Counted from the first letter of the stretch, positions 1 through 24,278 are shown. The stretch is 32,000 nucleotides of DNA from Candidatus Saccharimonadota bacterium (GCA_027925225.1 AP027131.1:360001-392000), one strand, 5' to 3'. Notes: generated by a model not told the origin, from the letters alone. Program-made: numbers and translations.

Positions 1-1115
1 CATGTTTCTGAAAATGAAAAATTAGTATCACTTAAAATTGCAATTCTATTTAATTGATTAGTATTTTTTAATCCTCATATTTCAAGTAAAGAAGAATCAC
101 TAATTGTAAAATCTTTTTCATTAGTAAAAGTTAAATATTGTAATACTCCAAAATAATTAATTGCAACATCAGAAATTATTTTATCTGTTTTTACAATATT
201 AAAAGTTGTTTGATTATTGTTTGCTATTTTAGATTTAAAAATTAAAAAATCATAATTTGAATAATTTTCACTTAATGTTGTATTAGTTCTATCATTAAGT
301 AATTTGTAATCAGGAAAAGAATACCCAGAAATTTTTTCTATACCTGTAAAAATATTATTTAAATTTGAGGGTTGAGCAAATTTTGTAAAAGTAATATCAT
401 AATCAGAAATAATACTCATATAAAAACCATAATAGTTTGAATTATTACTATTTGCAGAATTATAAGAAATATTATTAACCTTTTCTCCAATTAAGTTTAA
501 TCATCCATTTTTAAAGAAATCTGTAGTTTTATCATTTGTTGTAGATTTAAAAAAATAAATATTATTATCTGTTATTGAAAAGGGTAATATTTTTTCAGTT
601 AGACTTGCATCTTGATCTGGAATTAATTGAATTTCTTCTATTTCTTTTTCATCTTCTGTTTTTCCAGCTATACTATCAATTCCTATTTTTAAGGAATTAA
701 AAGTATTGTGGATTTTTTTGTGTTCATTAACATTTTCTTCATTTGCTGTTTTTTGATTTAAAGCAACACCAGAAAGTGATTCTAACGAAGAATCAAAAAG
801 AGAAACAGAAGAAGTGTCTATTTCTACTTCATTTTCAGATAATTTATTAATTTTTTTATTATTTAAAAATTTTTTTGATTGATTAAAAACTTCATTCCTA
901 ACTTTAATTAAATTTGTGTCATTTTCGGCACTTTTAATATTAATATTATTTAAACTAGTTTGATTTGTTTTAATATTAATATTTTCTAATTCTTTTACAT
1001 CTAATTTTTTAAAAGGCTTAGAAAACATTTGATTTTCATTTTTTTTAATTGGTGTAAAATTATTATTTTCTTTATTTAAATTTTCGAATTTATTTGTTGT
1101 TTTTTTTAATTTCAT
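1..1115 (-). CDS. Giant-repeat fibre-like protein family, paralog A. The N-terminal 371 codons are in the window and the C-terminus runs off the left edge.
   Basis: The ATG at 1113-1115 is preceded by AAGAGGAG. Track ORFs 501..1115 and 75..419 share one frame and are joined only by in-frame TGA (501-503, 75-77). I found no TAA/TAG in that frame from 1115 down to position 3. The protein aligns with the modules of the next gene (LESLSG..NQ..A.EENVN.H, LIPDQDASL, GWLNLIGE, SDYDITFTKFAQPSN, SSLLEIW). Confidence 0.85.
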
Positions 1116-1232
1116 ATCTCCTCTTTTAAAATATGTTTTTAAATAATTTATTTTATTTTAAAAATAAATATCACACATAACAAAGTAAAAAATAATAATC
1201 AATAATTAACAAAAAGAAATTATTTCATTATT

Positions 1233-1385
1233 AAATTAACATAATATATTTTGACTTAAAAAGTCTTGTTTTTATATTCTAGTTTATATTTTATTGAATT
1301 AAATTTTTTTATCTTATATTTAAAATTAAATCTAAAAATTCAATCAACATAATTTTAATATGTTTTTAAATTATTTATATTAAAT
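1233..1385 (-). promoter_or_regulatory. Conserved upstream block, copy 1 (likely promoter plus leader of paralog A).
   Basis: This block is near-identical to 10220..10372, for example aaattaaca-aatatatttt and tattctagtttatattt-attgaattaaatttt..tatcttatatttaaaattaaatctaaaaattcaatcaa..taattttaat. It begins 118 nt upstream of the ATG, against 119 nt for copy 2. The exact -35/-10 could not be fixed in this AT-rich context. Confidence 0.55.
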
Positions 1386-1467: not shown

Positions 1468-4400
1468 CTAAGATTTTCTTATATAAACATTTAAATTATT
1501 TATTTCATTTTTGCTTAAATTATTATCATTTGATAATTTTTTTACTAAAGATCAATTACCATAATTTGGTAAATATTTATCACCAACAATGATACTACCT
1601 ATTGGAAGCATTAAATTATCAACCATAGATACTAATGAATTTATTTGTGTTTGTAAATTAGTAATAATATTATTATTTTTATTTAGGACATCTCTTTTAA
1701 TTTGATTTATTTGTAAATAAAATCTTCTTAAATCTGTTTTATTTAATTTTTCTGCTAAAAGATTATCAACATAAAGTTTAGATGTTATATTTGAATCTGA
1801 TTTTGGTAATAATGCATTACCATTTCCGTCAATAATATCTACTCCTGTTGTTAGAACTCTTAATTCTGCAACATTTCCATTTTTATTATCAAAATTTTTA
1901 ATAAATGGAGAAGCGTCAACATCATTATAACCAAATAATTTCATTTCATCATTTTCATTATTATTTAAAGAAGTAGGAATTACTTCACTATTTATTGATC
2001 TTTCTAATCTTCTTAATTTTCTTTGGAATCTTCTATTTACTTCTGCTTGATTGTCTCCGCCTTCAAATCTATTGTTTGTTGTTGGTATTTTTGAAGTATT
2101 TAAACTAGAAATTCCATCTTTTCAAATATGATTAATTCCAAAAATTTCTACATTACTTAATTTATTATCAATATTATTAAAAGTACCTGACAATTCATCT
2201 GTTAATGTAAATGTGCTTCTTCCTTCAATTGAAAATTTATTTACATTATTTAATGTTAATGAATTTGTTGGAATTAAAATTCCTGATAATTTACTATCGA
2301 TATAATAAGAAATAAATATAAATTGATAATTACATCATGTTTCTGAAAACACAAAATTAGTATCACTTAAAGTTGCAATTTTATTTAATTGATGATTATT
2401 TTTAAAACCTCATATTCCAAGTAAAGAAGAATCATCAATTGTAAAATCTGTTTCATTATTAAAAGTTAAATATTTTAATGTTCCAAAATAATTTATTGCA
2501 ACATCAGAAACAATTTTATCTGTTTTTACAATATTAAAAGTAGTTTGTTGATTATTATCTATTTGAGATTTAATTATTAAAAAATCATAATTTAAATAGC
2601 TCTCTATTAATGATGTATTTGTTCCATCATTAAGTTTAGTATTTTCAAATGAATATCCCGAAATTCTTTTTATACCTTTAAAACTATTATCTGTATTTGA
2701 AGGTTCAGCAAACTTTGTAAAAGAAACATCGTAATCAGAAACAATATTCATATAAAAACCGTAATAATTTGAATTATTAACATCTGAAATGTTATAAACA
2801 ATATTATTAACATTTTCTTCAACTAAATTAAATCCGGCATTTTTTAAAAAATCTACATTTGCATCACTTGTTGAAGATTTTAAAAAATAAATATTATTAT
2901 TTGTTATTGGATAAGGTAATGTTTTTGAAGAAAGATTTGCATTTTGTCCTGGAATTAAATTAATTTCCTCAAATGCATCTTCATCCGAAATTTTTCCAAT
3001 TGCATTATTTATTTGTTCTGTAAAAGTATTAATAGTATTATGGATAGCAATATGATCATTAACATTTTCTATATTAACTTCTGCTTGAGTAGAAGCACTT
3101 TGAGTAATTGATTCTACCGAAGGATCAACAACTGTTAAAACTGAAGTATTATTTATTTCACTTAATGAAGGTCATTCAGTTATTAAATCACCATTTAAAA
3201 TAAGTTGAGGATAATTATATACACCAGTTTCTATATCTACTAAATCATCAGAATTTGTTTGAGTTTGAATTAAATAAGGATTTATTCCTTCATTTGGATT
3301 TGTGCCACTGTCAACTGTTAATTCTGAAGTATTTGTTGTTGTTGTTACTTCAATTGTTCCGTCTATTATTCCTGTTACTTGTGTATTTAAAGTATCTACT
3401 TCTGTATTTAAAATTTCTATGTTGTCAGCATTTGTCTGAGTTTGAATTAAATAGGGATTTATTCCTTCAGTTGAGCTTTCTTCGCTATCAATTATTAATC
3501 CTGAAGTGCTTGTTGTTGTTGTTACTGCAATTGTTCCATCTTTTATTCCTGCCACTTCTGTATTTAAAGTATCTACTTCTGTATTTAAACTTTCTATATC
3601 TGTGGCATTTGTCTGAGTTTGAATTAAATATGGATTTATTCCTTCAGTTGGATTTGTAGTACTATCATCTATAACTGTTGAAGAATATGAGCTTGTAACA
3701 ATAGGTGTTGTTCCGTCTATTATTCCTGCTACTTCTGTATTTAAAGCATCTATTTCTGTCGCATTTGTCTGAGTTTGAATTAAATATGAATTTATTCCTT
3801 CAGTTGGATTTGTAGTACTATCATCAATAACTGTTGAAGAATAAGAGTTTGTAACAATAGGTGTTGTTCCGTCTATTATTCCTTCTACTTCTGTATTTAA
3901 AGTATCTAATTCTGTACTTAAACTTTCTATATTTGTAGTATTTGTCTGAGTTTGAATTAAATAAGGATTTATTCCGTCATCTGGATTTGTAGTACTATCA
4001 TCTGTTATTTCTGAAGATATAGATGCTCCATCACCCGAAGATCATGTTTCTATTGTTTCTCCGTTTAATGTTAATTGAGGAAAATCATAAGTTCCACTCA
4101 TTATTTCTTCTAAATCACTACTATTTTTAGATACATTTATTTCCATTGCAAGTAAATCTGTTTGATCTGCTTTTGTTTCAATATTTGATTTATTTTCATC
4201 AATTTGTGTTTTTCAAGGATTTATTCCTTCTGTTGGATTTGTAGTACTATCATCTGTTACTTTAGAAGAATCAGAAGTTGTAACAACAGGTGTTGTTCCG
4301 TCTATTATTCCTTCTACTTCTGTATTTAAAGTATCTAATTCTGTATTTAAGGCACCTACTTCTGTATTTAAATTTTCTATATCTGTAACATTAGTCTGAG

Positions 4401-7400
4401 TTTGAATTAAATAAGGATTTATTCCTTCAGTTGGTTTTGTAGCACTATCGTCTGTTACTTTAGAAGAATCAGAAGTTGTAATAATAGGTGTTGTTCCATC
4501 TACTATTCCTTCTACTTCTGTATTTAAGATACCTACTTCTGCATTTAAATTTTCTATTTCTGTAGCATTTGTCTGAGTTTGAATTAAATAAGGATTTATT
4601 CCTTCAGTTGGATTTTCTTCACTATCATCTGTTATTTTTGAAGAAACTGGAACAATAAAAGGTCATTCTGTAATTTCTTCTCCATTTAATGTGATTTTAG
4701 GATAATCATAACTACCATCTTTTATTGTTATTAAATCTGAATTGTTTTGATTAACAATTATATTTGTTTCATCTAAATCTGATTGATCTGCTTTTAATGA
4801 AATATTTCCTGTATTTGTATCAATTTGTGTTTTTCAAGGATTTATCCCTTCGGTTGGATTTATAGCACTATCATCAGTTATTTCTGAAGAACTAAAATCT
4901 ATAGCAATAGGTATTGTCCCATCAATTATTCCTTCTACTTCTGTATTTAAGATACCTACTTCTGTATTTAAATTTTCTATATCTGTAGTATTTGTTTGAA
5001 TTTGAATTAAATAAGGATTTATTCCTTCAGTTGGGTTTTCTTCGCTATCATCTGTTATTTTTGAAGAATTAGAAGTTGTGACAACAGGTGTTGTTCCGTC
5101 TATTATTCCTGTTACTTGTGTATTTAAAGTATCTACTTCTGTATCTAAATTGTTTATACTAACAATATTTTTTTGAGTTTGAATTAAATAAGGATTTATC
5201 CCATCATCTGGATTTGTCCCACTATCATTAATTAATGCAGAAGTGAAAAAAGATATTAAAGTTGTTCCATCTATTATTCCTGTTACTTGTGTATTTAAAG
5301 TATCTAATTCTGTATTTAAAGTATCTACTTCTGTATTTAAAGTATCTATATTTTCAGTATTTGTCTGAGTTTGAATTAAATAAGGATTTATTCCAAGCGT
5401 TGGATTAATGTCACTATCATCAATTACTTCAGAAGATATTAAAGTTCCAATTTCTCCTGAAGGTCAATCTTCAATTGTTTGACCATTTAATGTTAACTGA
5501 GGATAATCATAAGTACCATCTTTTATTTCTTCTAAATCAGAACTGTTTTGAGTTATAACAGTATTTATTGAATCTAAATCAGTTTTATCTGCTTTAGATG
5601 TTTCTAAATATGTTAAACTATTTTGTACATTTTCATTAACTTCTGCTTGATTTTCTCCACCTTCAAGTTCACTATCTGCTGTTTGTAATTTTAAGGTGTT
5701 TATACTAGAAACGCCATCTTTTCAAATATGATTAAGACCATAAATTTCTGTATCACTTAATTTTCCATCATTATTATTAAAAGTTCCTTCTAATTCATTT
5801 ATTAATGTAAAATCATTTCTTCCATCTATTGTAAATCTATTTGCAGTATTAAGTATTATTGAATTTGTTGGTATTAAAACTCCACCTAAAACTCCACTTA
5901 ATTTATAAGAAACAAAAATAAATTGATAATTAGTTCATGCTTCTGAAAAGAGAAAATTATTGTCACTTAAAATTGCAATTCTATTTAATTGATGATTATT
6001 TTTAAAACCTCATATTCCAAGTAAAGAAGAATCACTAATTGTAAAATCTGTTTCACTAGTAAAAGTTAAATATTGTAATGTTCCAAAATAATTCATTGCA
6101 ACATCAGAAACTATCTTATCTGTTTTTACAATATTAAAGGTTGTTTGTTGATTATTTATTATATGAGATTTAATTATTAAGAAATCATAATTTAAATAAC
6201 TTTCACTTAATGTTGTAGTTGTTCTGTCATTAAGTTTAACACTAGAAAACGAATATCCAGAAATTTTGTTTATTCCTGTAAAAGAATTACCTTGATTTGA
6301 GGGTTGAGCAAATTTTGTAAAAGTAACATTATAATCAGAAATAACACTCATGTAGAAACCATAATAATTTGAATTACTACTATTTGAAGCATTATTATGA
6401 ATATTATTAACATTTTCTCCAATTAAATTTAATCCAGCATTTCTAACAAAACTTGAAGTTGAATTTGAATATGAAGACTTAAAAAAGTAAACATCATTAT
6501 CTGTTATTGGATAAAATAATGTTTTTTCAGCTAAACTTGCAACTTGATCTGGAATTAAATCTAATTCCTCAATTAAATCTTCATCTGGAACTCTCCCTAT
6601 TACATTATTTATTTGTGATGTAAAAGTACTAATAGTATTATGAAGAACTATATGATCATTAACATTTTCTTGATTTGCTATTTCTTGATTTATTGCATTG
6701 CCAGAAATTGATTCTAGTGTAGAATCAACAAGATTTATAAGAGAACTATTACTCTCTTGTCCTCCTTCAATTCAATTATTGATTACCTGTCCATTTAAAG
6801 TAAGTTGTGGATAATTATAAGTCCCTTCTTCTATTGCGGTTAAATCTAAATTATTTTGATTAACAATTATATTTGTTGCATCTAAATCAGATTGATTTGC
6901 TTTTAAAGAAATATCTTCAGTGTTTTTATCAACTTGTATTAAAGAAGGATTTATTCCAAGCGTTGGATTTAAATCACTGTCATCAGTTATTCTAGATGAT
7001 GTTGAAGAAGTTAATGAACTTTCTGAAGATCATTCTTCAATTGTTTGTCCATTTAAAGTAAGCTGTGGATAATTATAAGTTCCTTCTTCTATTGAAATTA
7101 AATCTGAATGTACATTTTCATTAACTTCTGCTTGATTTTCTCCACCTTCAAGTTCACTATTTGCTGTTGGTATTTTTGAAGTATTTATATTAGAGTTTCC
7201 TTCTTTTAAAATATGATTAAATCCATAAATTTCTACATCAGTTAATTTTCCATCAGGATTTGAAAAAATACCTTCCAATTCATTTGTTAATTTGAAATTA
7301 TTTCTTCCGTCTATTGAAAATATATTTTCATTATTTGATGTTATTGAATTTGTTGGTATTAAAACACCACCTAAAACTCCACTTATGTAATAAGAAACAA

Positions 7401-10101
7401 AAATAAATTGATAATTAGTTCATGTTTCTGAAAACACAAAATTAGTATCGCTTAAAATTGCAATTTTATTTAATTGACGATTATTTTTAAATCCTCATAT
7501 TCCAAGTAAAGAAGAATCGCTAATTGTAAAATCTGTTTCACTAGTAAAAGTTAAATATTGTAATGTTCCAAAATAATTCATTGCAACATCAGAAATTATT
7601 TTATCGGTTTTAACAACATTAAAAGTTGTTTGTTGATTATTAATTACCTGTGATTTAATTATTAAAAAATCATAATTTAAATAGCTTTCACTCAGTGTTG
7701 TAGTTGTTCTGTCATTAAGCTGAATATTAGAAAATGGATATGCAGAAATTCTCTCTATACCCGTAAAAGAATTACCTTGGTTTGAAGGTTGAGCAAATTT
7801 TGTAAAAGTAATGTCATAATCAGAAACAACATTCATATAAAAACCATAATAATTTGAATTATTACTATTTGAAGCATCGCAAATACTATTATTAACATTT
7901 TCGCCAATTAAATTTAAACCAGTATTTGCAAAAAAATCTCTATTTGCAACACTTGTTGAAGATCTTAAAAAATAAATATAATTATTAGTTATTGGATAAG
8001 GTAATGTTTTTTCAAGTAAATTTGCAATTTGATTTGAAATTAAATTAATTTCCTCAAAGGGTTCTTCATCTACAACTTTTCCTGATATGTTATTTATTAT
8101 CTGATTAAAATTATCAATAGAATCATTAATATATTTATGATCATTAACATTTTCTTGATTTGCTATTTCTTGATTTATTGCAGTACCAGAAAGTGATTCT
8201 AATGAAGGGTCAACAAGTGTTACAAGAGAAGTTTTACTATTTCCTCCCATATCAGATCATTCTGTAATTGTTTGATCACTTAAAGTAAGTTGTGGATAAT
8301 TATAGGTTCCTTCTTCTATTGTAGTTAAGTCTATATTATTTTGATTAACATTGGCATTTGTTGCATCTAAATCAGCTTGATTTGCTTTTAAAGAAATGTC
8401 TTCTTTATTTTTATTAATTTGTATTAAAGAAGGATTTATTCCAAGTGTAGGATTTAAATTACTATCATCAGTTATTTCACTTGATTTTGAAGCGGCAACT
8501 AAACTTTCTGATGGTCAGTTTGTTATAACTTTACCATTTAAAGTAAGTTTTTGATAATCATAAGTCCCATCTTCTATTTCATTTAAATCAGCGTGTACAC
8601 TTTTATTAACTTGCTCTTGATTATTTCCTCCTTCAAGCGAAGAATCTACTGTTGGTATTTTTGAAGTACCTAAACTTGAAACTCAATTTTCAAAAATGTG
8701 ATTAATTCCATAAATTTCTACATCAGTTAATTTTCCATCAACATTATTAAAAGTACCCTCTAATTCATTTTTTAAAACCACGATACTTCTTCCATCTATT
8801 GAAAATTTAATATTTATATTTAAAGCTATTGAATTTGTTGGTATTAAAACACCGCCTAAAACTCCACTTATGTAATAAGAAACAAAAATAAATTGATAAT
8901 TAGTTCATGTTTCTGCAAATGAAAAATTAGCAGCATTTAAAATTGCAATTCTTCTTAATTGACGATTATTTTTAAAACCTCATATTCCAAGTAAAGAAGA
9001 ATCACTAATTGTAAAATCTGTTTCACTAGTGAAAGTTAAATACTGTAATGTTCCAAAATAATTCATTGCAACATCAGAAACTATCTTATCTGTTTTTACA
9101 ATATTAAAGTTTGTTTGTTGATTATTTGCTATCTGAGATTTAATTATTAAGAAATCATAATTCAAATAACTTTCACTTAATGTTGTAGTTGTTCTGTCAT
9201 TAAGATTCACACTAGAAAAAGAATATCCAGAAATTTTTGCTATTCCTCTGAAAGCATTAGAAGAATTTGAAGGTTGAGCAAATTTTGAAAAAGTAATGTC
9301 ATAATCAGAAACAACACTAGCAAAAATACCAATATAATTTGAATTATTACTATTTGAAGAATTGTAGAGAGTAGTATTAAAATTTTCACCAATCAAATTT
9401 AATCCTGCGTTTTTAAAAAAAACTTCATTTGAAGTAGATGATAAACATTTTAAAAAATAAACATCATTATTTGTTATTGGATAAGGTAATGTTTTCTCAG
9501 CTAGACTTGCATCTTGATCAGGAATTAAATCAATTTCTTCAAATGCTTCTTCATCTGCTATTTTCCCTAATATATTATTTATTTCTAGCGAAAAACTACT
9601 AACAGTATTGTTAATAGAAATATGATCATTTACATTCTCTTTATTTGCAATTTCTTGATTTACTGCAGTTCCGGAAATTGACTCTAATGAAGAATTACTT
9701 AATACTAAAAGTGAAGTATCAGTTATTTCTTCATTAATAGATTGATTTTCTGTAATTTGATTTTTTAAAATAGATTTTGAAAAATCATTTAATGATTTAT
9801 TTTTTATTGATTTTAAATTTAATATTTTTTGATTTTTATTTAAATCAATATTTGTTTTATTTGATATATTTTGATTAATATTTTTTCTATTATTAGAAAA
9901 AATAATTTTCTTTGTTTTATTTATTTCTTGTTGAGAATTTACATTTTTAAAAGTTTTATCAACAGGAATAATTTTTGTGTTTTGAAATTTCCTTATATTT
10001 AATTTTAAGGGGTCTTTCTTAATAGATGTATTTTTATTAATTTCTAAATTACTAGTTTTATCTAAAGTTTTAGAGTTTTTTTTTGTTTTTTCAAATTTCA
10101 T
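1468..10101 (-). CDS. Giant modular repeat protein, paralog B (2877 aa with TGA=Trp). It has four ~330-aa beta-rich 'SDYD...LLGIW' globular modules, a GINPY short-repeat array, and a coiled-coil/tail-fibre-like C-terminal tip.
   Basis: I split every line from 10101 down to 1468 into codons in the frame whose plus-strand triplets start at 1 mod 3. No TAA/TAG occurs until the TAG at 1468-1470, and there are many in-frame TGA. All seven track ORFs (8980..10101, 7495..8250, 7030..7278, 6010..6351, 3172..3555, 2410..2751, 1552..1944) lie in this one frame. The ATG at 10099-10101 is preceded by AAAGAGGGA, with an in-frame upstream TAA at 10120-10122. Confidence 0.88.
3170..5460 (-). repeat. In-frame tandem array of ~170-180 bp (about 57-60 aa) 'GINPYLIQTQTN...LNTEV...IIDGTTP' units. 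It is interrupted three times by 'Y-D/N-Y/F-P-x-[IL]-[TN]-L-N-G-x-x-[IV]-[TE]-x-W' units.
   Basis: The string gtttgaattaaataaggatttattcc recurs near 3265, 3441, 3613, 3773, 3951, 4401, 4580, 5001, 5180 and 5370. The interrupting units lie near 4040-4100, 4660-4700 and 5460-5500. This array forms the 2.1-kb extra length between module anchors 6010 and 2410. Confidence 0.85.
6010..9700 (-). repeat. 1485-bp (495-aa) direct repeat modules inside paralog B.
   Basis: The 'LLGIW' TGA anchors at 8980, 7495 and 6010 are spaced exactly 1485 bp. The 'LES[LI]SG.A[IV]NQEIA..ENVNDH' anchors near 9690, 8205 and 6720 are spaced about 1485 bp. Stretches such as 5941-6120, 7441-7620 and 8941-9120 are nearly identical at DNA level. 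Further copies lie at 1950-3130 and in paralog A (1-800). Confidence 0.85.
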
Positions 10102-10219
10102 ATTCCCTCTTTTTATTATTTATGTATTAAAATTAAATAAAATTTTATTTTAATAAAAATATACACACGCAAAAAAATAAAAATTATTTAGCAAAACTAC
10201 ATAATTATTTATTTTTTTT

Positions 10220-16400: not shown

Positions 16401-19400
16401 TGTTTCACTATCATCTGTTATTCCTGAAGAATTTAAATTTATTGTAATTGTTCCATCAATTATATCTGCTATATCATCTGCATTTGCATCAATTGCAGTT
16501 TTTCATGGATTTATTCCTTCTGTTGGATTTGTTTCACTATCATCTGTTATATCTGAAGAAGCAGAAGCCCCATCACCCGAAGGTCAAGATGTTATTATTT
16601 CTCCATTTAAACTAAGTTGAGGGAAATCAAAATCTCCAGTTTCAATTGAATTTATATCATCGGTGTTTTCATCAATTGTAGTTTTTCAAGGATTTATTCC
16701 TTCGGTTGGATTTGTTTCACTATCATCTGTTATTCCTGAAGAATTTAAATTTATTGTAATTGTTCCATCAATTATATCTGCTATATCATCTGCATTTGCA
16801 TCAATTGCAGTTTTTCATGGATTTATTCCTTCTGTTGGATTTGCTTCACTATCATCTGTTATATCTGAAGAAGCAGAAGCCCCATCACCCGAAGGTCAAG
16901 ATGTTATTATTTCTCCATTTAAACTAAGTTGAGGAAAATCAAAGTCTCCAGTTTCAATTGAATTTATATCATCGGTGTTTTCATCAATTGTAGTTTTTCA
17001 AGGATTTATTCCTTCGGTTGGATTTGTTTCACTATCATCAGTTATATCCGATGAAGCAGAAACCCCATCACCCGAAGGTCATTCTGTTATTGTGTCTCCA
17101 CCTAATGTTAATTTCGGAAAATCAATATTTCCACCTTGAATATCTTCAATATCTGATTTATTTGCTCTATTTATTGCTTCTTGATCACCTCCGCCTTCTG
17201 CAGTAGAACTAGTAGCTAAAATATCTGAAGTATAAAGTGTTCCGCCACTTCCGCCTGAAGGTCATTCTGTTATTGTGTCTCCGCCTAATGTTAATTTCGG
17301 AAAATCAATATTTCCATCTTGAATATCTCCAATATCTGAAGTATTATCTTCAATACTTGTTTTATTTGCTTTATTTATTGCTTCTTGATCACTTCCACCT
17401 TCTGAAGCAGAACTAGTAGCTAAAATGTCTGAAGTATAAAGTGTTCCGCCACTTCCTCCTGAAGGTCATTCTGTTATTGTATCTCCACCTAATGTTAATT
17501 TTGGAAAATCAATATTTCCTTCTTGAATATCTCCAATATCTGAAGTGTTTTGACTAATATCTGAAGTATTATCTTCAATACTTGTTTTATTTGCTCTATT
17601 TATTGCTTCTTGATCACTTCCGCCTTCTGAAGAAGAACTAGTAGCTAAAATATCTGAAGTATAAAGTGTTCCGCCACTTCCGCCTGAAGGTCATTCTGTT
17701 ATTGTATCTCCACCTAATGTTAATTTTGGAAAATCAATATTTCCACCTTGAATATCTCCAATATCTGAAGTATTATCTTCAATACTTGTTTTATTTGCTC
17801 TATTTATTGCTTCTTGATCACTTCCGCCTTCTGAAGAAGAACTAGTAGCTAAAATGTCTGATGTATAAAGTGTTCCGCCACTTCCTCCTGAAGGTCATTC
17901 TGTTATTGTATCTCCACCTAATGTTAATTTCGGAAAATTAATATTTCCATCTTGAATACTTTCAATATCTGATTTGTTTGCTCTGTTTATTATTTCTTGA
18001 TTATTTCCGCCTTCTGAAGTAGAACTAGAAGCTAAAATATCTGAAGTATAAAGTGTTCCGCCACTTCCATCTGAAGGCCATTCTGTTATTGTGTCTCCAC
18101 CTAATGTTAATTTTGGAAAATTAATATTTCCATCTTGAATATCTCCAATATCTGAAGTATTTTGACTAATGTCTGAAGTATTATCTTCAATACTTGTTTT
18201 ATTTGCTCTATTTATTGCTTCTTGATCACTTCCGCCTTCTGAAGTAGAACTAGAAGCTAAAATGTCTGATGTATAAAGTGTTCCACCGCTTCCATCTGAA
18301 GGCCATTCTGTTATTGTGTCTCCACCTAATGTTAATTTTGGAAAATTAATATTTCCATCTTGAATACTTTCAATATCTGATTTGTTTGCTCTGTTTATTA
18401 TTTCTTGATTACTTCCACCTTCTGAAGCAGAACTAGAAGCTAAAACGTCTGATGTATAAAGTGTTTCGCCGCTTCCATCTGAAGGTCATTCTGTTATTGT
18501 GTCTCCATTTAAAGTAATTGATGTAAATGGTAAATCGCCACCTATAAGATCTGCTATATCTGAAGCATTATCAGCAATATTTGAAGTATTTGTTGCAATG
18601 TCTGAAGTATTTGTTGCAATATTTGATTTATTTAATTCATTTATTATTTGTTGATTGCTTCCGCCTTCTAATGTAGAACTAACAGCAGTAATATCTGATG
18701 TTGAATAATCTTCTTCGCCAACTGAAGGTCATTCTGTTATTGTATTGCCATTTAAAATTAATTGTGGATAACTAATAATTCCACTTTTAATATCTAAAAT
18801 ATCTGAAGCATTTTTATCAACATTTACTTTATTTGCTTCATTTATTATTTGCTGAGTTCTTCCACCTTCTGCAGCAGAACTAACAGCATCAATATTTGAG
18901 GTTAAAGAATTTTCTCCTCCATCTGAAGGTCATTCTGTTATTGTGTCTCCATTTAAAGTAATTGATGTAAATGGTAAATCGCCACCTATAAGATCTGCTA
19001 TATCTGAAGAGTTTTTATTAATTTCAGAAGAATTTGCTGAAATTGTTTCTTTATTTAATTCATTTATTATTTGTTGAGTACTTCCACCTTCTAATGTAGA
19101 ACTAACAGCAGTAATATCTGATGTTGAGTAATTTTCTTCTCCGCCTGAAGGTCATTCTGTTATTGTGTCTCCATTTAAAGTAATTGATGTAAATGGTAAA
19201 TCGCCACCTATAAGATCTGCTATATCTGAAGCATTATCAGCAATATTTGAAGTATTTGTTGCAATGTCTGAAGTATTTGTTGCAATATTTGATTTATTTA
19301 ATTCATTTATTATTTGTTGGTTGATTCCGCCTTCTAATGTAGAACTAACAGCAGTAATATCAGAAGTTAAGTAATTTTCTTCTCCGCCTGAAGGCCATTC

Positions 19401-22400
19401 TGTTATTGTATCCCCGTTTAAAGTAATTGATGTAAATGGTAAATCTCCACTTATAAGATCTGCTATATCTGAAGCATTATCAGCAATATTTGAAGCATTT
19501 TCTGCAATGTCTGAAGTATTTGTTCCAATATTTGATTTATTGACTTCATTTATTACTTGTTGATTACTTCCTCCCTCTGATATAAAATTAACAGCCAAAA
19601 TATCTGAAGTTAAAGAAGACTCGCTTCCACCTGAAGGTCAAGAATCTATTGTATCTCCATTTAAATTAATTGATGTAAATGGTAAATCGCCACTTACAAG
19701 ATCTGCTATATCTGAAGTATTTGTTTCAATGTTTTCTTTATTTGATTCATTTATTATTTGTTGGTTTGCTCCACCTTCTAGTGTAGAACTAACAGCAGTA
19801 ACATCTGATGTTGAAGAGGCTCCTCCACTTCCGCCTGAAGGTCAAGAAGTAATTGTTTCTCCGTCTAAAATTAATTGTGGATAGTCAATAAGTCCACTTT
19901 CAATATCTGATATTTCTGAAGCATTTTTATCAATATTGATTTTGTTTGCTTCATTTATTATTTGTTGAGTATTTCCACCCTCTAATGTAGAACTAACAGC
20001 AGTAACGTCTGATGTTGAGGAAGCTCCTCCTTCTCCATCTGAAGGTCAGGTAGTAATTGTTTCTCCATTTAAGGTAATTGATGTAAATTCTAAATCTCCA
20101 CTTGTGATATCAGATATATCAGATTTATTTTCTAATATATCACTTGCATTTTCATCAATTGCAGTTTTTCAAGGATTTATTCCTTCGGTTGGATTTGTTT
20201 CACTATCATCTGTTATACCTGAAGAAGCAGAAGCTCCATCACCCGAAGGTCAAGAATCTATTGTATCTCCGTTTAAATTAATTGATGTAAATGGTAAATC
20301 TCCACTTACAAGATCTGCTATATCTGAAGTATTTGTTTCAATGTTTTCTTTATTTGCTTCATTTATTATTTGTTGGTTTGCTCCACCTTCTAGTGTAGAA
20401 CTAACGGCAGTAACATCTGATGTTGAAGAGGCTCCACCACTTCCGCCTGAAGGTCAAGAAGTAATTGTTTCTCCGTCTAAAATTAATTGTGGATAGTCAA
20501 TAAGTCCACTTTCAATATCTGATATTTCTGAAGCATTTTTATCAATATTGATTTTGTTTGCTTCATTTATTATTTGTTGAGTATTTCCACCCTCTAATGT
20601 AGAACTAACAGCAGTAACGTCTGATGTTGAAGAAGCTCCTCCTTCTCCATCTGAAGGTCAGGTAGTAATTGTTTCTCCATTTAAGGTAATTGATGTAAAT
20701 TCTAAATCTCCACTTGTAATATCAGATATATCACTTGCATTTTCATCAATTGCAGTTTTTCAAGGATTTATTCCTTCGGTTGGATTTGTTTCACTATCAT
20801 CTGTTATACCTGAAGAAGCAGAAGCCCCATCACCCGAAGGTCAAGTATTTATTGTTTCTCCATTTAAGGTAATTGATGTAAATTCTATATCTCCACTTGT
20901 AATATCAGATATATCAGATTTATTTTCTAATATATCACTTGCATTTTCATCAATTGCAGTTTTTCAAGGATTTATTCCTTCGGTTGGATTTGTTTCACTA
21001 TCATCAGTTATGCCCGAAGAAGCAGAAGCTCCATCACCCGAAGGTCAAGTATCTATTGTTTCTCCATTTAAATTAATTGATGTAAATTCTAAATTTCCAC
21101 TTGTAATATCTGCTATATCTGAAGCATTTTCATCAATTGCAGTTTTTCAAGGATTTATTCCAAAGGTTGGATTTGAAATACTATCATCTTCTGTTGAAGA
21201 AGAAACAGAATTTGTTAGAATTGTTCCATCTATTATTTTTGCTATATCACTTGCATTTTCATCAATTGTAGTTTTTCAAGGATTTATTCCTTCAGTTGGA
21301 TTTGTTTCACTATCATCTGTTATTCCTGAAGAAGCAGAAGCTCCATCACCCGAAGGTCAAGTATCTATTGTTTCTCCATTTAAATTAATTGATGTAAATG
21401 GTAAATCTCCACTTATAATATCTGCTATATCTGAAGTATTTGTATCAATACTTTCTTTATTTACTTCATTTATTAATTGTTGGTTTGCTCCGCCTTCTAA
21501 AGCAGAATCAACGGCTAAAAGATCTGATGTTGAAGAAGCTCCGCTTCCTCCCGAAGGTCAAGTGCTTATTGACTCTCCATTTAAAGTGATTTCTGTAAAA
21601 CCTAATTCTCCACTTCTAATATCTTCCATATCTGAAGTGTTTGATTCAATATTTTCTTTATTTAATAAATTTATTATTTGTTGATTTGCTCCACCTTCTA
21701 AGGCAGAGCTTACAGGAATAATATCTGATGTTGAAAAAGCCGAAGGTCAATTACTTATTGGTTGTTCATTTAAAATTAATTGAGGATAACTATTTAGGCC
21801 ACTTTTAATTTCTGCTATATCTTCTGCATTTTTATTAATACTTACTTTGTTTGCTTCATTTATTATTTGTTGATTTGCTCCACCCTCTGAAATAGAACTG
21901 ACTGCAATTATATCTGAGGTTGAAGCCCCATTTGCACCCGAAGGCCAAGTATCTATTGTTTCTCCATTTAAATTAATTTCTGTAAAAACAAATTCTCCAC
22001 TTGTAATGCTAGATATATTTGAAGTATTAGAAGCAATATTTGAAGTATTAGAAGCAATATTTGAAGTATTTGTATCAATACTTTCTTTATTTGATTCGTT
22101 TATTGATTGTTGATTTTCTCCACCTTCTAAAGCAGAATCAACGGCTAAAAGATCTGATGTTGAAGAAGTTCCGCCACTTCCGCCAGAGGGTCAAGTATCT
22201 ATTGTTTCTCCATTTAAGGTAATTGATGTAAATTCTAAATCTCCACTTGTGATATCTGCTATATTTGAAGCATTTGTCTCAATATTGATTTTATTTGCTT
22301 CATTTATTATTTGTTGATTTGCTCCACCTTCCAATGTAGAACTAACAGCAATAATGTCTGATGTTGAAGAAGTCCCACCACTTCCGCCCGAAGGTCAAGA

Positions 22401-24278
22401 AGTAATTGTTTCTCCGTCTAAAATTAATTGTGGATAGTCAATAATTCCACTTGTAATATCTTCTATATTTGAAGCATTTGTCTCAATATTGATTTTATTT
22501 GCTTCATTTATTATTTGTTGAGTATTTCCACCCTCTAATGTAGAACTAACAGCAGTAATGTCTGATGTTGAAGAGGCTCCGCCTTCTCCGTCTGAAGGTC
22601 AAGAAGTAATTGTTTCTCCATTTAAAGTTATTTCCGTAAAAGCAATATCTCCACTTATAATATCTGATATATTTGAGGTATTAGAAGCAATATTTGAGGT
22701 ATTTGTTGTTATATTTACTTTATTTGTTTGATTTATTAATTGCTGATTTTCTCCACCCTCTAGGGTAGAATTTACAGCAGTAATGTCTGATGTTAAAGAA
22801 GCTCCTCCTTCTCCACCTGAAGGTCAGGTTTCTATTGTTTCTCCATTTAAGGTAATTGATGTAAATTCTAAATTTCCACTTGTGATATCTGCTATATCAT
22901 CTGTGTTTGTATCAATTGCAGTTTTCCAAGGATTTATTCCAAAGGTTGGATTTGAAATACTATCATCTTCTGTTGAAGAAGAAACAGAATTTGTTGTAAT
23001 TGTTCCATCCATTATTCCTGTTATATTATTTAAATTTGTATCAATTTGAGTTTTTCAAGGATTTATTCCATTTGTTGGATTTGCACCACTGTCATCTGCT
23101 ATGCCCGAAGATGTTGATGCTCCCTCACCCGAAGGTCAAGTATCTATTGTTTCTCCATTTAAGGTAATTGATGTAAATTCTAAATTTCCACTTGTGATAT
23201 CTGCTATATCATCTGTGTTTGTATCAATTGCAGTTTTTCAAGGATTTATTCCTTCGGTTGGATTTTCTTCATTATCATCTGCTATGCCCGAAGATGTTGA
23301 TGCTCCGTCACCCGAAGGTCATTCTGTTATTGTATCTCCACTTAATGTTAATTTTGGGTAATTAAAATCACCTCTTGTAATATTTGCTATATCATCTGTG
23401 TTTGTATCAATTGCAGTTTTTCAAGGATTTATTCCAAAGGTTGGATTTTCTTCGCTATCATCTTCTGTTGAGGAAGAAACAGAATTTGTTGGAATTGTTC
23501 CATCTATTATTCCCAATATATCATCTACGTTTTTATCAATTGCAGTTTTTCAAGGATTTATTCCTTCGGTTGGATTTTCTTCACTATCATCAGTTGCAGT
23601 TGAAGAAAAAACATTTATTGGAATTGTTCCGTCTATTATTCCCGATATATCATCTGCATTTTCATCAATTTGAGTTTTTCAAGGATTTATTCCATTTGTT
23701 GGATTTGTATCATTATCATCTCTTATTTGTGAAGCACTTGAAGCTCCGCTACCTGAAGGTCAGGTACTTATTGACTCTCCATTTAAAGTAAGTTGTGGAT
23801 AGTCAAAGGTTCCCTCTTTTATTGGTTCAAAATCAGTATTTAATTTATAGCTAGTAATTACATGTGAATCTTCTGTTGCAATAAATGGTGAATTAACACG
23901 ATTTTCAAAAGTAATTGCCGAAATACCACTTAGAGAAACATTAAGTCTAATATTTTTATTTGTGCTTTCATCTTTTGCTGCTATTAAAGGAGATGCATCA
24001 GATCCATAAGTAAAAAATCCAGATCTATTAAGGTCTGTATTTTTTAAAGTTTTATCTAATTTTGCATCTAAAATATTATTTGCAGACAAAGTAAGAGAAT
24101 CATAATTTAATACATTTTTATTTAATTCAAAATCCATTGGATTAAAAATCAAATTCTCTTTTTTATTTTTTGTATCCTGGATTTTTGCTTTTTTATTTAT
24201 TAAATTTTTATAATAAATAGATTTATTTAAATTATTATTTTTATTATTTTCTTTTTGATCTATATTTTTAGATTTCAT
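10425..24278 (-). CDS. Giant repeat protein, paralog C (4617 aa with TGA=Trp). It has a short unique N-terminal domain, about 13 kb of nested in-frame tandem repeats, and a coiled-coil/tail-fibre-like C-terminal tip.
   Basis: I split every line from 24278 down to 10425 into codons in the frame whose plus-strand triplets start at 0 mod 3. No TAA/TAG occurs until the TAA at 10425-10427, and there are dozens of in-frame TGA at conserved motif positions. Track ORFs 23760..24278, 22824..23012, 19152..19598 and 10527..10733 are all in this frame. The ATG at 24276-24278 is preceded by ACGAGGT, with an in-frame upstream TAA at 24297-24299. Confidence 0.88.
10890..11580 (-). repeat. 327-bp (109-aa) tandem duplication, near-identical.
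   Basis: The conserved 'NSW' TGA codons at 10926 and 11253 are 327 bp apart. Lines 10921-11240 and 11245-11570 match almost base for base. Confidence 0.8.
12840..15330 (-). repeat. 618-bp (206-aa) tandem repeat of about 4 copies. Each unit is two 183-bp GINPW/..SWPSG units plus one ~252-bp 'KLYVDN' module.
   Basis: The anchor (g/a)ttttgactaacttcagcac occurs at 13203, 13821, 14439 and 15057, spaced exactly 618 bp. Copies differ by only a few bases per 100. A more diverged extra KLYVDN module lies at 12090-12360. Confidence 0.9.
15330..16000 (-). repeat. 183-bp (61-aa) tandem repeat of about 4 copies (GINPWKTTID...GDFDFPQLSLNGEIITSWPSGDGASASS).
   Basis: The conserved TGA of 'TSWPSG' occurs at 15411, 15594, 15777 and 15960, spaced exactly 183 bp. 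Confidence 0.9.
15960..16900 (-). repeat. 312-bp (104-aa) tandem repeat of 3 copies, each a 183-bp unit plus an extra 129-bp GINPW unit.
   Basis: The conserved TGA occurs at 15960, 16272, 16584 and 16896, spaced exactly 312 bp. The track's plus-strand ORFs 16039, 16351 and 16663 mirror this period. Confidence 0.9.
17079..18490 (-). repeat. Variable-length tandem units of 183, 204 or 225 bp (GGSDQEAINRANKTSIEDNTSDI..GDIQ.GNIDFPKLTLGGDTITEWPSGGSGGTLYTSDILATSSS).
   Basis: The 'TEWPS' Trp codon occurs at 17079, 17262, 17466, 17691, 17895, 18078, 18303 and 18486. The successive spacings are 183, 204, 225, 204, 183, 225 and 183, so they differ by multiples of 21 bp. Two of these Trp codons are TGG (cca at 18078 and 18303) and the rest are TGA. 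Confidence 0.88.
18490..22900 (-). repeat. Array of roughly 200-240-bp units (STLEGG.NQQ.IN..NK..I..N.S.I..I.SG.L.FTSI.LNGETI.[TS]WPSGG...). It is intermixed with GINPW units near 20100-21400.
   Basis: This comes from reading the minus-frame translation. Recurrent plus-strand strings include ccaccttctaatgtagaactaacagcagtaa and gaaggtca(a/t/g). Units are more diverged than in the 12.8-17 kb arrays. Confidence 0.75.
22015..22080 (-). repeat. 21-bp (7-aa) perfect micro-tandem repeat nested inside a larger unit (SNTSNIA x about 3).
   Basis: gaagtattagaagcaatattt occurs at 22021-22041 and again at 22042-22062, followed by a partial third copy. Confidence 0.85.

What the first reader, a model, noticed from the sequence alone, without database searches (positions are those of the whole stretch)
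1..24278. All three giant paralogs lack any recognisable export or anchoring signal
The N-termini are hydrophilic and Lys/Asn-rich. Paralog C starts MKSKNIDQKENNKNNNLNKSIYYKNLINKKAKIQDTKNKK. Paralog B starts MKFEKTKKNSKTLDKTSNLEINKNTSIKKDPLKLNIRKFQ. Paralog A starts MKLKKTTNKFENLNKENNNFTPIKKNENQMFSKPFKK. None has a hydrophobic h-region or a lipobox Cys, and I saw no TM-like stretch anywhere in my translations. The plus-strand neighbours at 24727 and 27340, by contrast, have obvious signal peptides and TM anchors. In a wall-less bacterium whose main known protein-export route is Sec, repeat proteins that look like adhesins or fibres but lack a signal are puzzling. Three explanations are possible: a huge intracellular or cytoskeletal fibre, non-classical release or export, or anchoring through partner proteins.
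Basis: partly seen in the sequence, partly recalled or inferred. Interest (0 to 1): 0.75.

Follow-up and report, generated by a model that had tools for sequence, protein, structure and literature searches.

The report
Giant signal-less phage-fibre-like proteins
Three enormous repeat proteins of the woodlouse-gut mollicute Candidatus Hepatoplasma vulgare really do lack any export or anchoring signal, apparently because they are built from the same modules as the virion fibres of viruses that infect such bacteria, so they are probably assembled inside the cell rather than exported like classical adhesins.

Summary
Under genetic code 4, the three minus-strand genes encode proteins of 2838 aa (A, cut by the window), 2877 aa (B) and 4617 aa (C). 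Each starts at an ATG preceded by a Shine-Dalgarno motif, with an in-frame stop 7-15 codons upstream. None has a signal-peptide h-region, a lipobox or a credible TM helix. Neighbours D, F and G have obvious ones.

The window is the published Candidatus Hepatoplasma vulgare Av-JP genome. C is HPAVJP_3240 and A is HPAVJP_3220. They belong to the "giant repetitive ORFs" that Kawato et al. 2024 suggested are adhesins.

What seems new: every module after the basic leader recurs in fibre genes on seven code-4 phage-like contigs. These modules are the R1/R2/R3 short repeats, the K knob, the M module and the coiled coil plus C-terminal tip. The contigs carry protein-primed PolB, packaging ATPase or portal genes.

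Only 1 of 48 family members has a hydrophobic N-terminus. Lacking a signal is therefore the family's normal state, as expected for virion fibres folded in the cytoplasm.

Where the chromosomal giants act is unresolved. They could be released by lysis, exported by an unknown route, or stay inside as a stalk fibre. Structure prediction failed.

The parts
1..1115 (-). Gene A (HPAVJP_3220, BDV02433.1). These are the first 371 codons of a 2838-aa protein; the gene continues beyond the window start.
   Evidence: Code-4 translation. It is an exact prefix of P0013. Named.
816..1115 (-). A leader: 100 aa, Lys/Asn-rich, pI 9.7, no h-region.
3..815 (-). First M module of A (residues 101-371 of a module of about 387 aa).
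   Evidence: hmmsearch.
1116..1127 (-). Shine-Dalgarno AAAGAGGAGAT directly upstream of the ATG of A.
1468..10101 (-). Gene B: 2877 aa plus a TAG stop. Presumed to be HPAVJP_3230.
   Evidence: The locus tag is inferred from its neighbours.
9718..10101 (-). B leader: 128 aa, pI 10.1, no h-region.
8557..9717 (-). B, M module copy 1.
   Evidence: M is homologous to the central domain of phage fibres (hhalign probability 88%, E 2.8e-6).
7072..8232 (-). B, M module copy 2.
5587..6747 (-). B, M module copy 3.
1987..3147 (-). B, M module copy 4.
1738..2007 (-). B, K knob (…FGYNDVDASPFI…AELRVLT…SKLYVDNLL).
   Evidence: 44% identical to phage fibre P0007.
1471..1740 (-). B, coiled-coil neck plus short C-terminal tip (LPIGSIIVG…YGNW…VYIRKS).
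10102..10113 (-). Shine-Dalgarno AAAGAGGGAAT upstream of the ATG of B.
10425..24278 (-). Gene C (HPAVJP_3240, BDV02435.1): 4617 aa plus a TAA stop.
   Evidence: Identical to P0006.
24078..24278 (-). C leader: 67 aa, pI 9.7.
23832..24077 (-). C, N-terminal K-like knob.
12861..15332 (-). Four tandem 618-nt (206-aa) units, 97.1-99.7% identical. Each unit holds a K knob plus R1/R2 repeats. The knobs lie at 15066-15332, 14448-14714, 13830-14096 and 13212-13478.
12099..12365 (-). C, fifth K knob (after the N-terminal K-like knob).
10428..10709 (-). C, coiled-coil neck plus short C-terminal tip (LPIDSIIIS…YGIW…FYIWKREA).
24279..24290 (-). Shine-Dalgarno AACGAGGTATA upstream of the ATG of C.
24727..26232 (+). 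D: 501 aa, with a signal peptide, tandem repeats of about 110 aa and a C-terminal TM helix. A positive control and a possible partner.
26360..27247 (+). E: 295-aa charged protein that looks like a coiled coil, with no TM helix.
27340..30375 (+). F: 1011 aa, a paralogue of D (signal peptide, repeats, C-terminal TM helix).
30678..31211 (+). G: 177 aa, with an N-terminal TM helix and a charged C-terminal part.
31535..32000 (+). 5' end of gatA. It shows the window is chromosomal; 60% identical to Ca. Hepatoplasma crinochetorum.

Best explanation
A, B and C are chromosomal, greatly expanded derivatives of the virion-fibre (tail-fibre type) proteins of phages that infect code-4 mollicutes.

Architecture. 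Each protein has a basic, low-complexity leader of 67-128 aa (pI about 10). An acidic rod (pI about 4) follows. The rod consists of dozens of short beta-rich repeats (R1 '…FPQLTLNGETITxWPSG', R2 'DDSxxNPTxGINPWKTxID', R3 'SSxLEGGxNQxxINxxNK'). These are interrupted by K knobs (6 in C, 1 in B) or M modules of about 387 aa (4 in B, 4 in A). Each protein ends in a coiled-coil neck and a short beta tip.

Shown. (i) No Sec signal, lipobox or TM helix exists, and the start codons are sound. (ii) Every module after the leader is homologous to modules of fibre genes that sit in the structural-gene blocks of phage-like contigs. (iii) Lacking a signal is the rule in that family.

Inferred. Like phage fibres, the proteins fold and oligomerise (probably as trimers, nucleated at the C-terminal neck and tip) in the cytoplasm, so they are not Sec substrates. 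If they act outside the cell, they get there by membrane rupture or lysis of part of the population. That is easy in a wall-less cell and is the route used by phage fibres, tailocins and eCIS particles. They would not be translocated.

The loss of the phage N-terminal adaptor and of the variable middle of the tip, together with eight family genes in one stretch of about 32 genes, indicates domestication rather than an active prophage.
For: Absence of signals.

Identity of the genes: C = BDV02435.1 and A = BDV02433.1 of Ca. H. vulgare.

Homology to phage fibres:
- C residues 2990-3143 (K knob + R1) are 41-43% identical to fibre genes on L052 and L054 (E 2.5e-23 and 6e-21) and 37% to L058. C matches the L057 fibre at 25.5% over 686 aa.
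- The K knob is 47% identical to P0007 (E 1e-20), and the tips match at E 5e-8.
- The M module matches the central domain of phage fibres with hhalign probability 88%, E 2.8e-6.

Phage nature of the contigs:
- L052 (19 kb): protein-primed DNA_pol_B_2, methyltransferases, a packaging ATPase (phrog_2150, 8.5e-18, similar to the terminases of 16-19 kb podophages) and two adjacent fibre genes.
- L061 (12 kb): PolB plus a fibre gene.
- L057: SSB and DUF5906. Its fibre P0031 hits PHROG tail-fibre families (3.8e-22).
- L058 (99-kb contig): portal, RNR and genes of 1517, 1382, 1083 and 1349 aa.
- L053, L054, L060.
- All seven fibre-family genes tested, on six of the contigs, use TGA = Trp.
- Only the fibre genes are shared between contig types, which is classic fibre mosaicism.
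- Other members carry the tail-fibre 'ATKKYVD' motif with PHROG tail-fibre hits, or a head-tail-adaptor N-terminus.

Family state: 1 of 48 members has a hydrophobic N-terminus.

Domestication:
- The family genes are HPAVJP_2930, 2990, 3000, 3020, 3030, 3220, (3230) and 3240.
- No phi29-type packaging ATPase was found in H. vulgare.
- The phage 'PYNLAEQV' and gp6-like adaptors are absent, and the leaders are not conserved.
- The tip is shortened to the strands that AlphaFold2 models with pLDDT above 90.

The genes look functional: intact 8.6-kb and 13.9-kb ORFs in a 27% GC genome, with strong Shine-Dalgarno sites.
Against: - No capsid, portal, tail or lysis gene is visible in the window. The neighbours are gatA and membrane proteins.
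- The giants are 3-8 times longer than any phage relative found.
- The direction of module transfer (phage to host, or host to phage) is not established.
- Trimer formation, cytoplasmic folding and release by lysis are inferred from the family and were not tested.
- Both structure predictions were weak (pLDDT 67.8 for the tip, 36 for M) and gave no fold match.
- No Pfam or PHROG family matches A, B or C directly, and no deposited phage genome matches.
- Devoting about 4.7% of a 662-kb genome to proteins that work only after cell death would be costly.
- The rest of the H. vulgare island (HPAVJP_2930-3210) could not be read.
Confidence: 0.45

Rival explanations
1. Surface adhesins exported by a route that has not been recognised. 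The proteins reach the outside of living cells without a Sec signal. One possibility is a C-terminal signal read by an ABC-type exporter, as in type-1-secreted giant adhesins. Once outside, they would be held on the membrane by partner proteins such as D, F (signal peptide plus TM helix) or G, and would mediate attachment to the isopod brush border.
For: - Kawato et al. proposed an adhesion role for the Hepatoplasmataceae giant ORFs.
- Hepatoplasma attaches to microvilli.
- The proteins are giant, acidic (pI about 4), repetitive and nearly Cys-free, with a C-terminal ~50 aa conserved among A, B and C. These are all typical of T1SS substrates.
- Canonical surface proteins D and F lie next to the cluster, transcribed divergently from it.
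Against: - There are no RTX or other secretion-signal hits in Pfam.
- No ABC or MFP gene is in the window.
- The conserved C-terminus is homologous to the structural core of a phage fibre tip, not to a secretion signal.
- The same repeats work in phage proteins that fold in the cytoplasm.
- D to G have no relatives next to family members elsewhere.
Confidence: 0.25
2. Intracellular, membrane-tethered fibres. The proteins never leave the cell. They form long cytoplasmic fibres, such as the core of the stalk-like cytoplasmic appendage that Hepatoplasma inserts between microvilli. They would be attached to the inner face of the membrane through the basic leader or through membrane proteins that carry the same coil-plus-tip module.
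For: - No export signal is present.
- Hepatoplasma forms stalks, described as cytoplasmic appendages.
- On the related contig L059, two genes fuse 2 or 4 TM helices to the coil and short tip. By the positive-inside rule, the tip is on the cytoplasmic side.
- The leaders are strongly basic (pI 9.7-10.1) and could bind anionic lipid.
- Other mollicutes have large signal-less cytoskeletal proteins (M. pneumoniae HMW1/2/3, P200; background knowledge).
Against: - No membrane-anchored tip protein was found in H. vulgare itself.
- There is no similarity to known mollicute cytoskeletal proteins or their EAGR/APR domains.
- The L059 topology is only a prediction, and the contig's nature is unknown.
- The sister species are also stalked, yet their giant ORFs are unrelated Ig-like arrays.
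Confidence: 0.15
3. Anti-phage decoys. The chromosomal copies keep the oligomerisation parts of phage fibres (neck plus tip core). They co-assemble with fibre subunits of an infecting phage, or mask the receptor after release, and so block production or adsorption of infectious virions.
For: - They share the neck and tip core with fibres of at least four unrelated phage types, but lack the virion adaptor and the variable tip region.
- There are many small tip-only paralogues (163-681 aa) in the same stretch of the genome.
- The genome keeps CRISPR-Cas9, so phage pressure is real.
Against: A 4617-aa rod is unnecessary for a decoy. There are no PADLOC or other defence-family data. The idea is purely inferential.
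Confidence: 0.07
4. Artefact or relic: mis-assembled repeats, wrong start codons or decaying prophage remnants with no function.
For: The content is highly repetitive, with units up to 99.7% identical. The source is a metagenome-assembled genome.
Against: - The code-4 ORFs are uninterrupted over 8.6 and 13.9 kb in AT-rich DNA.
- All repeat periods are multiples of 3.
- Shine-Dalgarno sites sit at all three starts.
- The assembly used long ONT reads chosen to span repeats.
- Three paralogues are kept in a 662-kb genome.
Confidence: 0.03

Closest known systems
Giant repetitive ORFs of Hepatoplasmataceae (Kawato et al. 2024, Access Microbiol, PMC10928387)
   Same: These are literally those genes. 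C is BDV02435.1 (HPAVJP_3240) and A is BDV02433.1 (HPAVJP_3220). The paper describes 3-4 large repetitive ORFs in tandem clusters with few relatives outside the family, proposed as adhesins. It notes that the H. vulgare units could not be folded, and my AF2 attempt on the M module also failed.
   Different: The paper does not mention signal peptides, TM helices, phages or tail fibres. The giants of H. crinochetorum and H. scabrum are Ig-like arrays and those of Tyloplasma are a different beta-sandwich, whereas the H. vulgare set is built from phage-fibre modules.
Mosaic phage tail fibres and appendages (for example T4 gp37/gp12, lambda Stf, phi29-like appendages; PHROG tail-fibre families 25848, 26419, 2710)
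   Same: Modular rod of short repeats and knobs, followed by a coiled-coil neck and a C-terminal tip. No signal peptide. Modules are exchanged among unrelated phages. The knob ends in a '…KxYVD' motif. Full-length tips of relatives carry HxH motifs.
   Different: A, B and C lie in a chromosome beside gatA, not in a virion gene block. They lack the N-terminal virion adaptors. Their tip is cut down to about 50 aa. They are 3-8 times longer than the phage relatives. No Pfam or PHROG model hits them directly.
Chromosomal phage-derived particles released by lysis (R/F-type tailocins, eCIS/MAC arrays)
   Same: Phage-fibre homologues kept by bacteria for their own use. They are made without signals and released by lysis of a subpopulation.
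   Different: No sheath, tube, baseplate or lysis genes are seen here. Whether any particle exists is unknown.
Type-1-secreted giant repeat adhesins (LapA, SiiE, MpIBP)
   Same: Thousands of residues, acidic, repetitive, almost no Cys, no N-terminal signal and a conserved C-terminus.
   Different: No RTX nonapeptides or T1SS genes were detected. The C-terminus is a phage-tip core. The organism has a single membrane.
Mycoplasma pneumoniae terminal-organelle cytoskeleton proteins (HMW1, HMW2, HMW3, P200)
   Same: Large signal-less structural proteins of a wall-less bacterium that builds a polar attachment appendage.
   Different: No sequence or domain similarity (no EAGR box, APR domain or long coiled coil). 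The comparison rests on background knowledge plus negative Pfam scans.

Membership tests
Phage virion (tail) fibre proteins | Significant sequence homology to fibre genes that lie in phage structural modules. | tested here: met
   K knob 47% identical, E 1e-20. C against L052, L054 and L058 fibres, E 1e-16 to 1e-23. M module, hhalign probability 88%. Exhaustive phmmer places C and A in the family.
Phage virion (tail) fibre proteins | The gene lies in a phage or prophage next to capsid, portal, packaging or tail genes. | tested here: not met
   The window neighbours are gatA and membrane proteins. No phi29-type packaging ATPase was found in H. vulgare. The region to the left of A could not be read.
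Phage virion (tail) fibre proteins | An N-terminal adaptor that docks the fibre on the virion. | tested here: not met
   The phage copies start with 'PYNLAEQV', 'NGELIDINVNN' or head-tail-adaptor-like domains. A, B and C start with non-conserved basic leaders.
Phage virion (tail) fibre proteins | A complete C-terminal tip domain (about 125 aa, with an HxH motif). | tested here: not met
   Only the first strands and the last strand are kept, and the middle is deleted.
Phage virion (tail) fibre proteins | A homotrimeric fibre structure. | not testable with these tools
   Only monomer AF2 was available. The tip model had pLDDT 67.8 and the M model 36.
Sec-exported mollicute surface proteins and lipoproteins | An N-terminal signal peptide with a hydrophobic h-region, or a lipobox Cys. 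| tested here: not met
   Best KD11 in the first 150 aa is 0.94 (A), 1.09 (B) and 1.65 (C), against 2.8-3.1 for D, F and G. There is no lipobox, and in-frame stops lie 7-15 codons upstream.
Sec-exported mollicute surface proteins and lipoproteins | A TM anchor anywhere in the protein. | tested here: not met
   The best 19-aa windows (1.28-2.01) fall in beta-strand regions, and paralogous copies carry charges there. No dedicated TM predictor was run.
Hepatoplasmataceae giant repetitive ORFs (Kawato 2024) | Proteins of more than 2000 aa, in a tandem cluster of 3-4 genes, with internal tandem repeats, restricted to the family. | tested here: met
   Exact identity to BDV02435.1 and BDV02433.1. Repeats. 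Only 48 relatives among 1.84 billion representative proteins.
T1SS/RTX giant adhesins | RTX GGxGxD nonapeptides and a C-terminal secretion signal, with a cognate ABC/MFP exporter. | tested here: not met
   No HemolysinCabind or related Pfam hits. No exporter gene in the window. The rest of the genome was not examined.
Mycoplasma terminal-organelle cytoskeletal proteins | EAGR box, acidic proline-rich domain or long coiled coil. | tested here: not met
   No Pfam hits. Only a short coiled-coil neck is present.

The most novel reading that the evidence does not exclude
Hepatoplasma vulgare has domesticated phage tail-fibre modules into signal-less fibres hundreds of nanometres long. These would be assembled in the cytoplasm and form the core of its host-attachment stalk, or be deployed from it. 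They would be tethered to the membrane from inside by the basic leader or by membrane proteins that carry the same neck-plus-tip module. This would be a phage-derived bacterial cytoskeleton or attachment organelle in a minimal cell.
Probability: 0.13. Interest if true: 0.85.

Novelty: new variant of a known kind. Interest (0 to 1): 0.58.

Why it matters
The giant ORFs take up about 4.7% of a 662-kb symbiont genome. They are the leading candidates for how Hepatoplasma attaches to the isopod midgut gland, a mechanism that recent papers still call unresolved.

They are built from phage-fibre modules and carry no Sec signal. This changes which experiments make sense: look for trimeric fibres, for release by lysis or vesicles, or for an intracellular stalk core, rather than assuming a Sec-exported adhesin.

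The work also uncovers a group of uncultivated code-4 (Mollicute) phages (12-19 kb PolB phages and larger ones) whose fibre modules are absent from deposited phage genomes and from Pfam. PHROGs matches only unrelated regions or the generic K-knob motif of a few relatives. It is a clear case of fibre modules shared between phages and the chromosome of a minimal bacterium.

Tried and rejected
- Code 25 (TGA = Gly, as in CPR bacteria). Rejected because TGG and TGA interchange at the same Trp positions.
- Pfam and PHROG scans of A, B, C and their sub-regions. Only sub-threshold noise.
- PDB sequence searches. A chance hit to a designed WD40 protein, and a weak 18-21-aa match of the tip's first strand to T4 gp11 (E 0.18 and 1.8), not significant.
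- The search for homologous proteins with B residues 1-534 found nothing. This negative is unreliable, because it missed A, which is in the database and 58-69% identical over the M module. Low-complexity words probably swamped the candidate list.
- Genome-contig scan with M-module patterns: nothing.
- The 10-kb flanks of gatA in 8 related mollicute genomes have no relatives of A to G and no giant ORFs, so there is no synteny.
- IMG/VR scans by protein and by a degenerate GINPWKT pattern: nothing. The metagenome pattern scan gave two chance hits at 43-46% GC.
- INPHARED phages: no match for the B C-terminus, P0007 or P0037.
- AF2 model of the tip domain was only partly confident, with no Foldseek PDB match below E = 1. 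The AF2 model of the M module was unusable (pLDDT 36).
- Tools that require 'exact window sequence' reject code-4 translations containing TGA-encoded Trp. I worked around this with database copies of A and C.
- A conserved N-terminal docking motif shared between the chromosomal leaders and phage fibres: not supported by alignment.
- An L052-type prophage in H. vulgare: no packaging-ATPase homologue.
- The paper's supplements and SRA accession searches gave no annotation or sample information.
- No tRNAs, terminator-like sites or unusual promoter counts around the genes.

Full report
**1. What the window is**

The window has 26.6% GC. It gives long ORFs only if TGA is read as a sense codon. TGA and TGG alternate at identical positions of the repeats (TITE[W]PSG, GINP[W]KTA), so TGA means Trp and the code is table 4, not table 25.

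The minus strand carries three genes:
- A: start codon at 1115, cut by the window start.
- B: 10101 to 1471, 2877 aa.
- C: 24278 to 10428, 4617 aa.

The plus strand carries D (24727), E (26360), F (27340), G (30678) and the start of gatA (31535).

The gatA fragment is closest to Hepatoplasmataceae, with 60% identity to Ca. Hepatoplasma crinochetorum. An exhaustive protein search later returned a 4617-aa protein identical to C and a 2838-aa protein whose first 371 residues equal A. These are BDV02435.1 (HPAVJP_3240) and BDV02433.1 (HPAVJP_3220) of Candidatus Hepatoplasma vulgare, from a 662,108-bp genome. B is presumably HPAVJP_3230.

**2. Checking the observation**

The three quoted N-termini are exact.

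Each ATG is preceded by a Shine-Dalgarno motif: AAAGAGGAGAT (A), AAAGAGGGAAT (B) and AACGAGGTATA (C). An in-frame stop lies 15, 7 and 7 codons upstream, so no hidden N-terminal extension exists.

| Measure | A | B | C | D | F | G |
|---|---|---|---|---|---|---|
| Best 11-residue Kyte-Doolittle window, first 150 aa | 0.94 | 1.09 | 1.65 | 2.91 | 2.78 | 3.13 |
| Best 19-residue window, whole protein | 2.01 (full length) | 1.66 | 1.28 | 3.18 | 3.38 | 2.59 |

(Values.)

- The B peak is a strand inside the M module, FIFVSYYISGVLGGVLIPT. Sister copies read …YYIDSKLSGILIPT, with charged residues.
- The A peak lies at the neck-to-tip junction, which is homologous to a beta strand that AlphaFold2 models confidently.
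- C has no cysteine. The first Cys is at residue 219 in B and 1475 in A, so there is no lipobox.

The caveat is that no dedicated predictor (SignalP, TMHMM) was available.

**3. Anatomy**

Profile searches within the window give a modular picture.

- Leaders of 100 aa (A), 128 aa (B) and 67 aa (C) are Lys/Asn-rich with pI 9.7-10.1. The rest of each protein has pI about 4.05-4.6.
- B has four M modules of about 387 aa, and full-length A also has four.
- C has about 120 short repeats of three kinds: R1 ×50, R2 ×41 and R3 ×29.
- C also has six K knobs. Four of them lie in tandem 618-nt units that are 97.1-99.7% identical.
- All tandem-repeat periods are multiples of three.
- A, B and C all end in a heptad-like neck and a short conserved tip: LP[IV]G/DS[IV]I…P.YG.W…[IVFY][YIW][KR][KR].

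D and F are paralogues built from repeats of about 110 aa, with a signal peptide and a C-terminal TM helix. They are canonical surface proteins and good internal controls.

**4. Relatives**

Pfam and PHROGs give nothing for A, B or C.

A search with the C-terminal 628 aa of C found two smaller H. vulgare proteins (HPAVJP_2990 and 3000) and three proteins from Logan assemblies. An exhaustive phmmer search of 1.84 billion representative proteins with one of them (P0003) found only 48 proteins at E ≤ 1e-3. That set includes C, A and three more H. vulgare genes (HPAVJP_2930, 3020, 3030).

The contexts of the non-Hepatoplasma members are phage-like:

| Contig | Size | Features |
|---|---|---|
| L052 | 19 kb | Protein-primed family-B polymerase, two methyltransferases, packaging ATPase (phrog_2150, E 8.5e-18; distantly similar to terminases of 16-19-kb podophages), two adjacent fibre genes at the end of the structural block |
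| L061 | 12 kb | Same kind of polymerase plus a fibre gene |
| L054 | 4.9 kb | Repeats the L052 gene order |
| L057 | 17 kb | SSB and DUF5906; its 1331-aa fibre hits PHROG tail-fibre families at 3.8e-22 |
| L058 | 99-kb contig | Portal, ribonucleotide reductase and four genes of 1083-1517 aa |
| L053, L060 | 9.4 kb; 31.7-kb contig | Further unidirectional gene blocks |

All seven fibre-family genes tested, on L052, L053, L054, L057, L058 and L059, use TGA as Trp. The fibre genes are the only genes shared between the different contig types. That is the classic mosaic behaviour of host-range modules.

Other members carry the '…ATKKYVD' motif with PHROG tail-fibre hits, or a head-tail-adaptor-like N-terminus.

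**5. How strong the link to A, B and C is**

- The K knob of C is 47% identical to fibre P0007 of L052 (E 1e-20).
- The tips of B and C match phage tips at E 7e-6 and 5e-8.
- By tblastn, C matches L052, L054 and L058 at 37-43% identity over 135-158 aa (E 1e-16 to 2.5e-23). It matches the L057 fibre at 25.5% over 686 aa.
- The M module aligns to the central domain of fibres P0003, P0004, P0008 and P0038 with hhalign probability 88%, E 2.8e-6, over 180 columns.
- R1, R2 and R3 motifs are visible in several phage members.

Every module after the leader therefore has a phage-fibre counterpart.

There are three differences:
- The phage N-terminal adaptors are replaced by non-conserved basic leaders.
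- The tip domain of about 125 aa, with its HxH motif, is reduced to about 50 aa. Only the first strands and the last strand remain, and these are exactly the parts AlphaFold2 models at pLDDT above 90.
- The proteins are 3-8 times longer.

**6. Why the signal is missing**

Only one of the 48 family members (P0040) has a hydrophobic N-terminus. Virion fibres are synthesised, folded and attached to particles in the cytoplasm, and they leave by lysis (established phage biology). The absence of Sec signals in A, B and C is therefore best read as the inherited state of the family. It is not an annotation error or a cryptic signal. This step is an inference from homology.

**7. Prophage or domesticated?**

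The window shows no virion genes, and H. vulgare has no homologue of the L052 packaging ATPase. However, H. vulgare has eight family genes within about 32 consecutive locus tags (2930-3240). That is far more than a prophage would carry. The chromosomal copies also lack virion adaptors.

I conclude, by inference, that the family is domesticated and expanded. I could not read the genes between HPAVJP_3030 and 3220, so an unrecognised prophage of another type is not excluded.

**8. Where the proteins act**

This is not settled. There are four readings.

1. Cytoplasmic assembly followed by release through membrane rupture of some cells. This is the ancestral route, is trivial in a wall-less cell, and parallels tailocins and eCIS. 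I favour it.
2. Export by an unrecognised route, followed by anchoring on partners. The proteins share the general look of type-1-secreted adhesins (giant, acidic, Cys-poor, conserved C-terminus), and D and F lie next door. However, there are no RTX motifs and no exporter in the window, and the C-terminus is a fibre-tip core.
3. An intracellular, membrane-tethered fibre, for example the core of the stalk-like cytoplasmic appendage by which Hepatoplasma contacts microvilli. One hint comes from contig L059 (18.9% GC), which has six consecutive tip-bearing genes. Two of them fuse 2 or 4 TM helices to the neck and short tip, with flanking charges that place the tip in the cytoplasm.
4. An anti-phage decoy that poisons fibre assembly or masks receptors.

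**9. Comparison with what is known**

Kawato et al. 2024 already reported '3-4 large repetitive ORFs in tandem clusters' in Hepatoplasmataceae. They suggested adhesins and noted that the H. vulgare units could not be folded. The paper does not mention signal peptides, TM helices, phages or tail fibres. Neither does a 2026 paper that still calls the adhesion mechanism unresolved.

The genes are therefore known. The signal-less state and the phage-fibre ancestry appear to be new. I file them as homologues of phage virion fibres but not as bona fide tail fibres, because context, adaptor and complete tip were each tested and not met.

**10. Verdict**

- The finding is a new variant of a known kind: phage-fibre modules co-opted by a bacterium.
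- Interest is moderate to high, because it redirects experiments on how this minimal symbiont attaches to its host and exposes an uncharted group of Mollicute phages.

Noticed in passing
L059:1-5414 (Logan ERR14127475, 18.9% GC): Six consecutive genes all end in the family's tip domain. Two of them (316-1125 with 4 TM helices, 2318-2995 with 2 TM helices) fuse membrane helices to a K-rich linker, coil and short tip. The positive-inside rule puts the tip in the cytoplasm. A seventh, cut gene starts an R1 repeat. This looks like the counterpart of the HPAVJP_2930-3030 array.
   Followed up: partly
H. vulgare genome outside the window (HPAVJP_2930, 2990, 3000, 3020, 3030): Five small paralogues (163-681 aa) with a complete tip domain lie 19-29 genes upstream of gene A. 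An orphan 'type I M subunit' (BDV02406.1, roughly HPAVJP_2950) is nearby. They could be a cassette reservoir, a prophage remnant or defence genes.
   Followed up: partly
window:24727-26232 and 27340-30375 (+): D and F are paralogous surface proteins made of tandem units of about 110 aa (NPYIE..GFEI…SLN.TGLAV). Each has a signal peptide and a C-terminal TM helix. They have no Pfam family and no relatives on the phage contigs.
   Followed up: partly
window:30678-31211 (+) and 26360-27247 (+): G has an N-terminal TM helix and a long charged tail. Its shape is holin-like, or it could be a membrane anchor for coiled coils. E is a 295-aa charged protein that looks like a coiled coil. Neither has a family hit.
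   Followed up: no
window:1116-1127, 10102-10113, 24279-24290 versus 24700-24726, 27310-27339, 30650-30677: A, B, C (and E) have strong GAGG-type Shine-Dalgarno motifs. D, F and G have none within 15 nt of their ATG.
   Followed up: no
window:12000-24000: Gene C has 32-33% GC, against 18-25% in the flanks and 24-27% in B. The cause may be its Gly/Ala/Ser/Asp-rich repeats or a different origin. The phage contigs have 24-29% GC.
   Followed up: no
window:10450-23358 (+): Many long code-4 ORFs (up to 644 codons, for example 15301-17232) run antisense to gene C, with the same 618-nt periodicity. These are almost certainly shadow ORFs of the repeats, not genes.
   Followed up: no
L001 (JBKECG010000068.1, labelled Pikeienuella sp. 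MAG): This is a 25-kb contig with 30% GC, code-4-type ORFs and the best gatA match (65%). It is binned in an alphaproteobacterial MAG and is probably a mis-binned Hepatoplasmataceae-like mollicute contig.
   Followed up: no
L052, L061, L054 (Logan contigs): These are small (12-19 kb) code-4 phage genomes with protein-primed PolB. Their structural proteins have no PHROG family apart from the packaging ATPase. They appear to be an undescribed group of Mollicute podophages.
   Followed up: partly
(tool behaviour): The word-indexed protein search with B residues 1-534 returned nothing. Yet A, whose M modules are 58-69% identical, is in that database. Negatives from that tool on Asn/Lys-rich queries should not be trusted.
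   Followed up: yes
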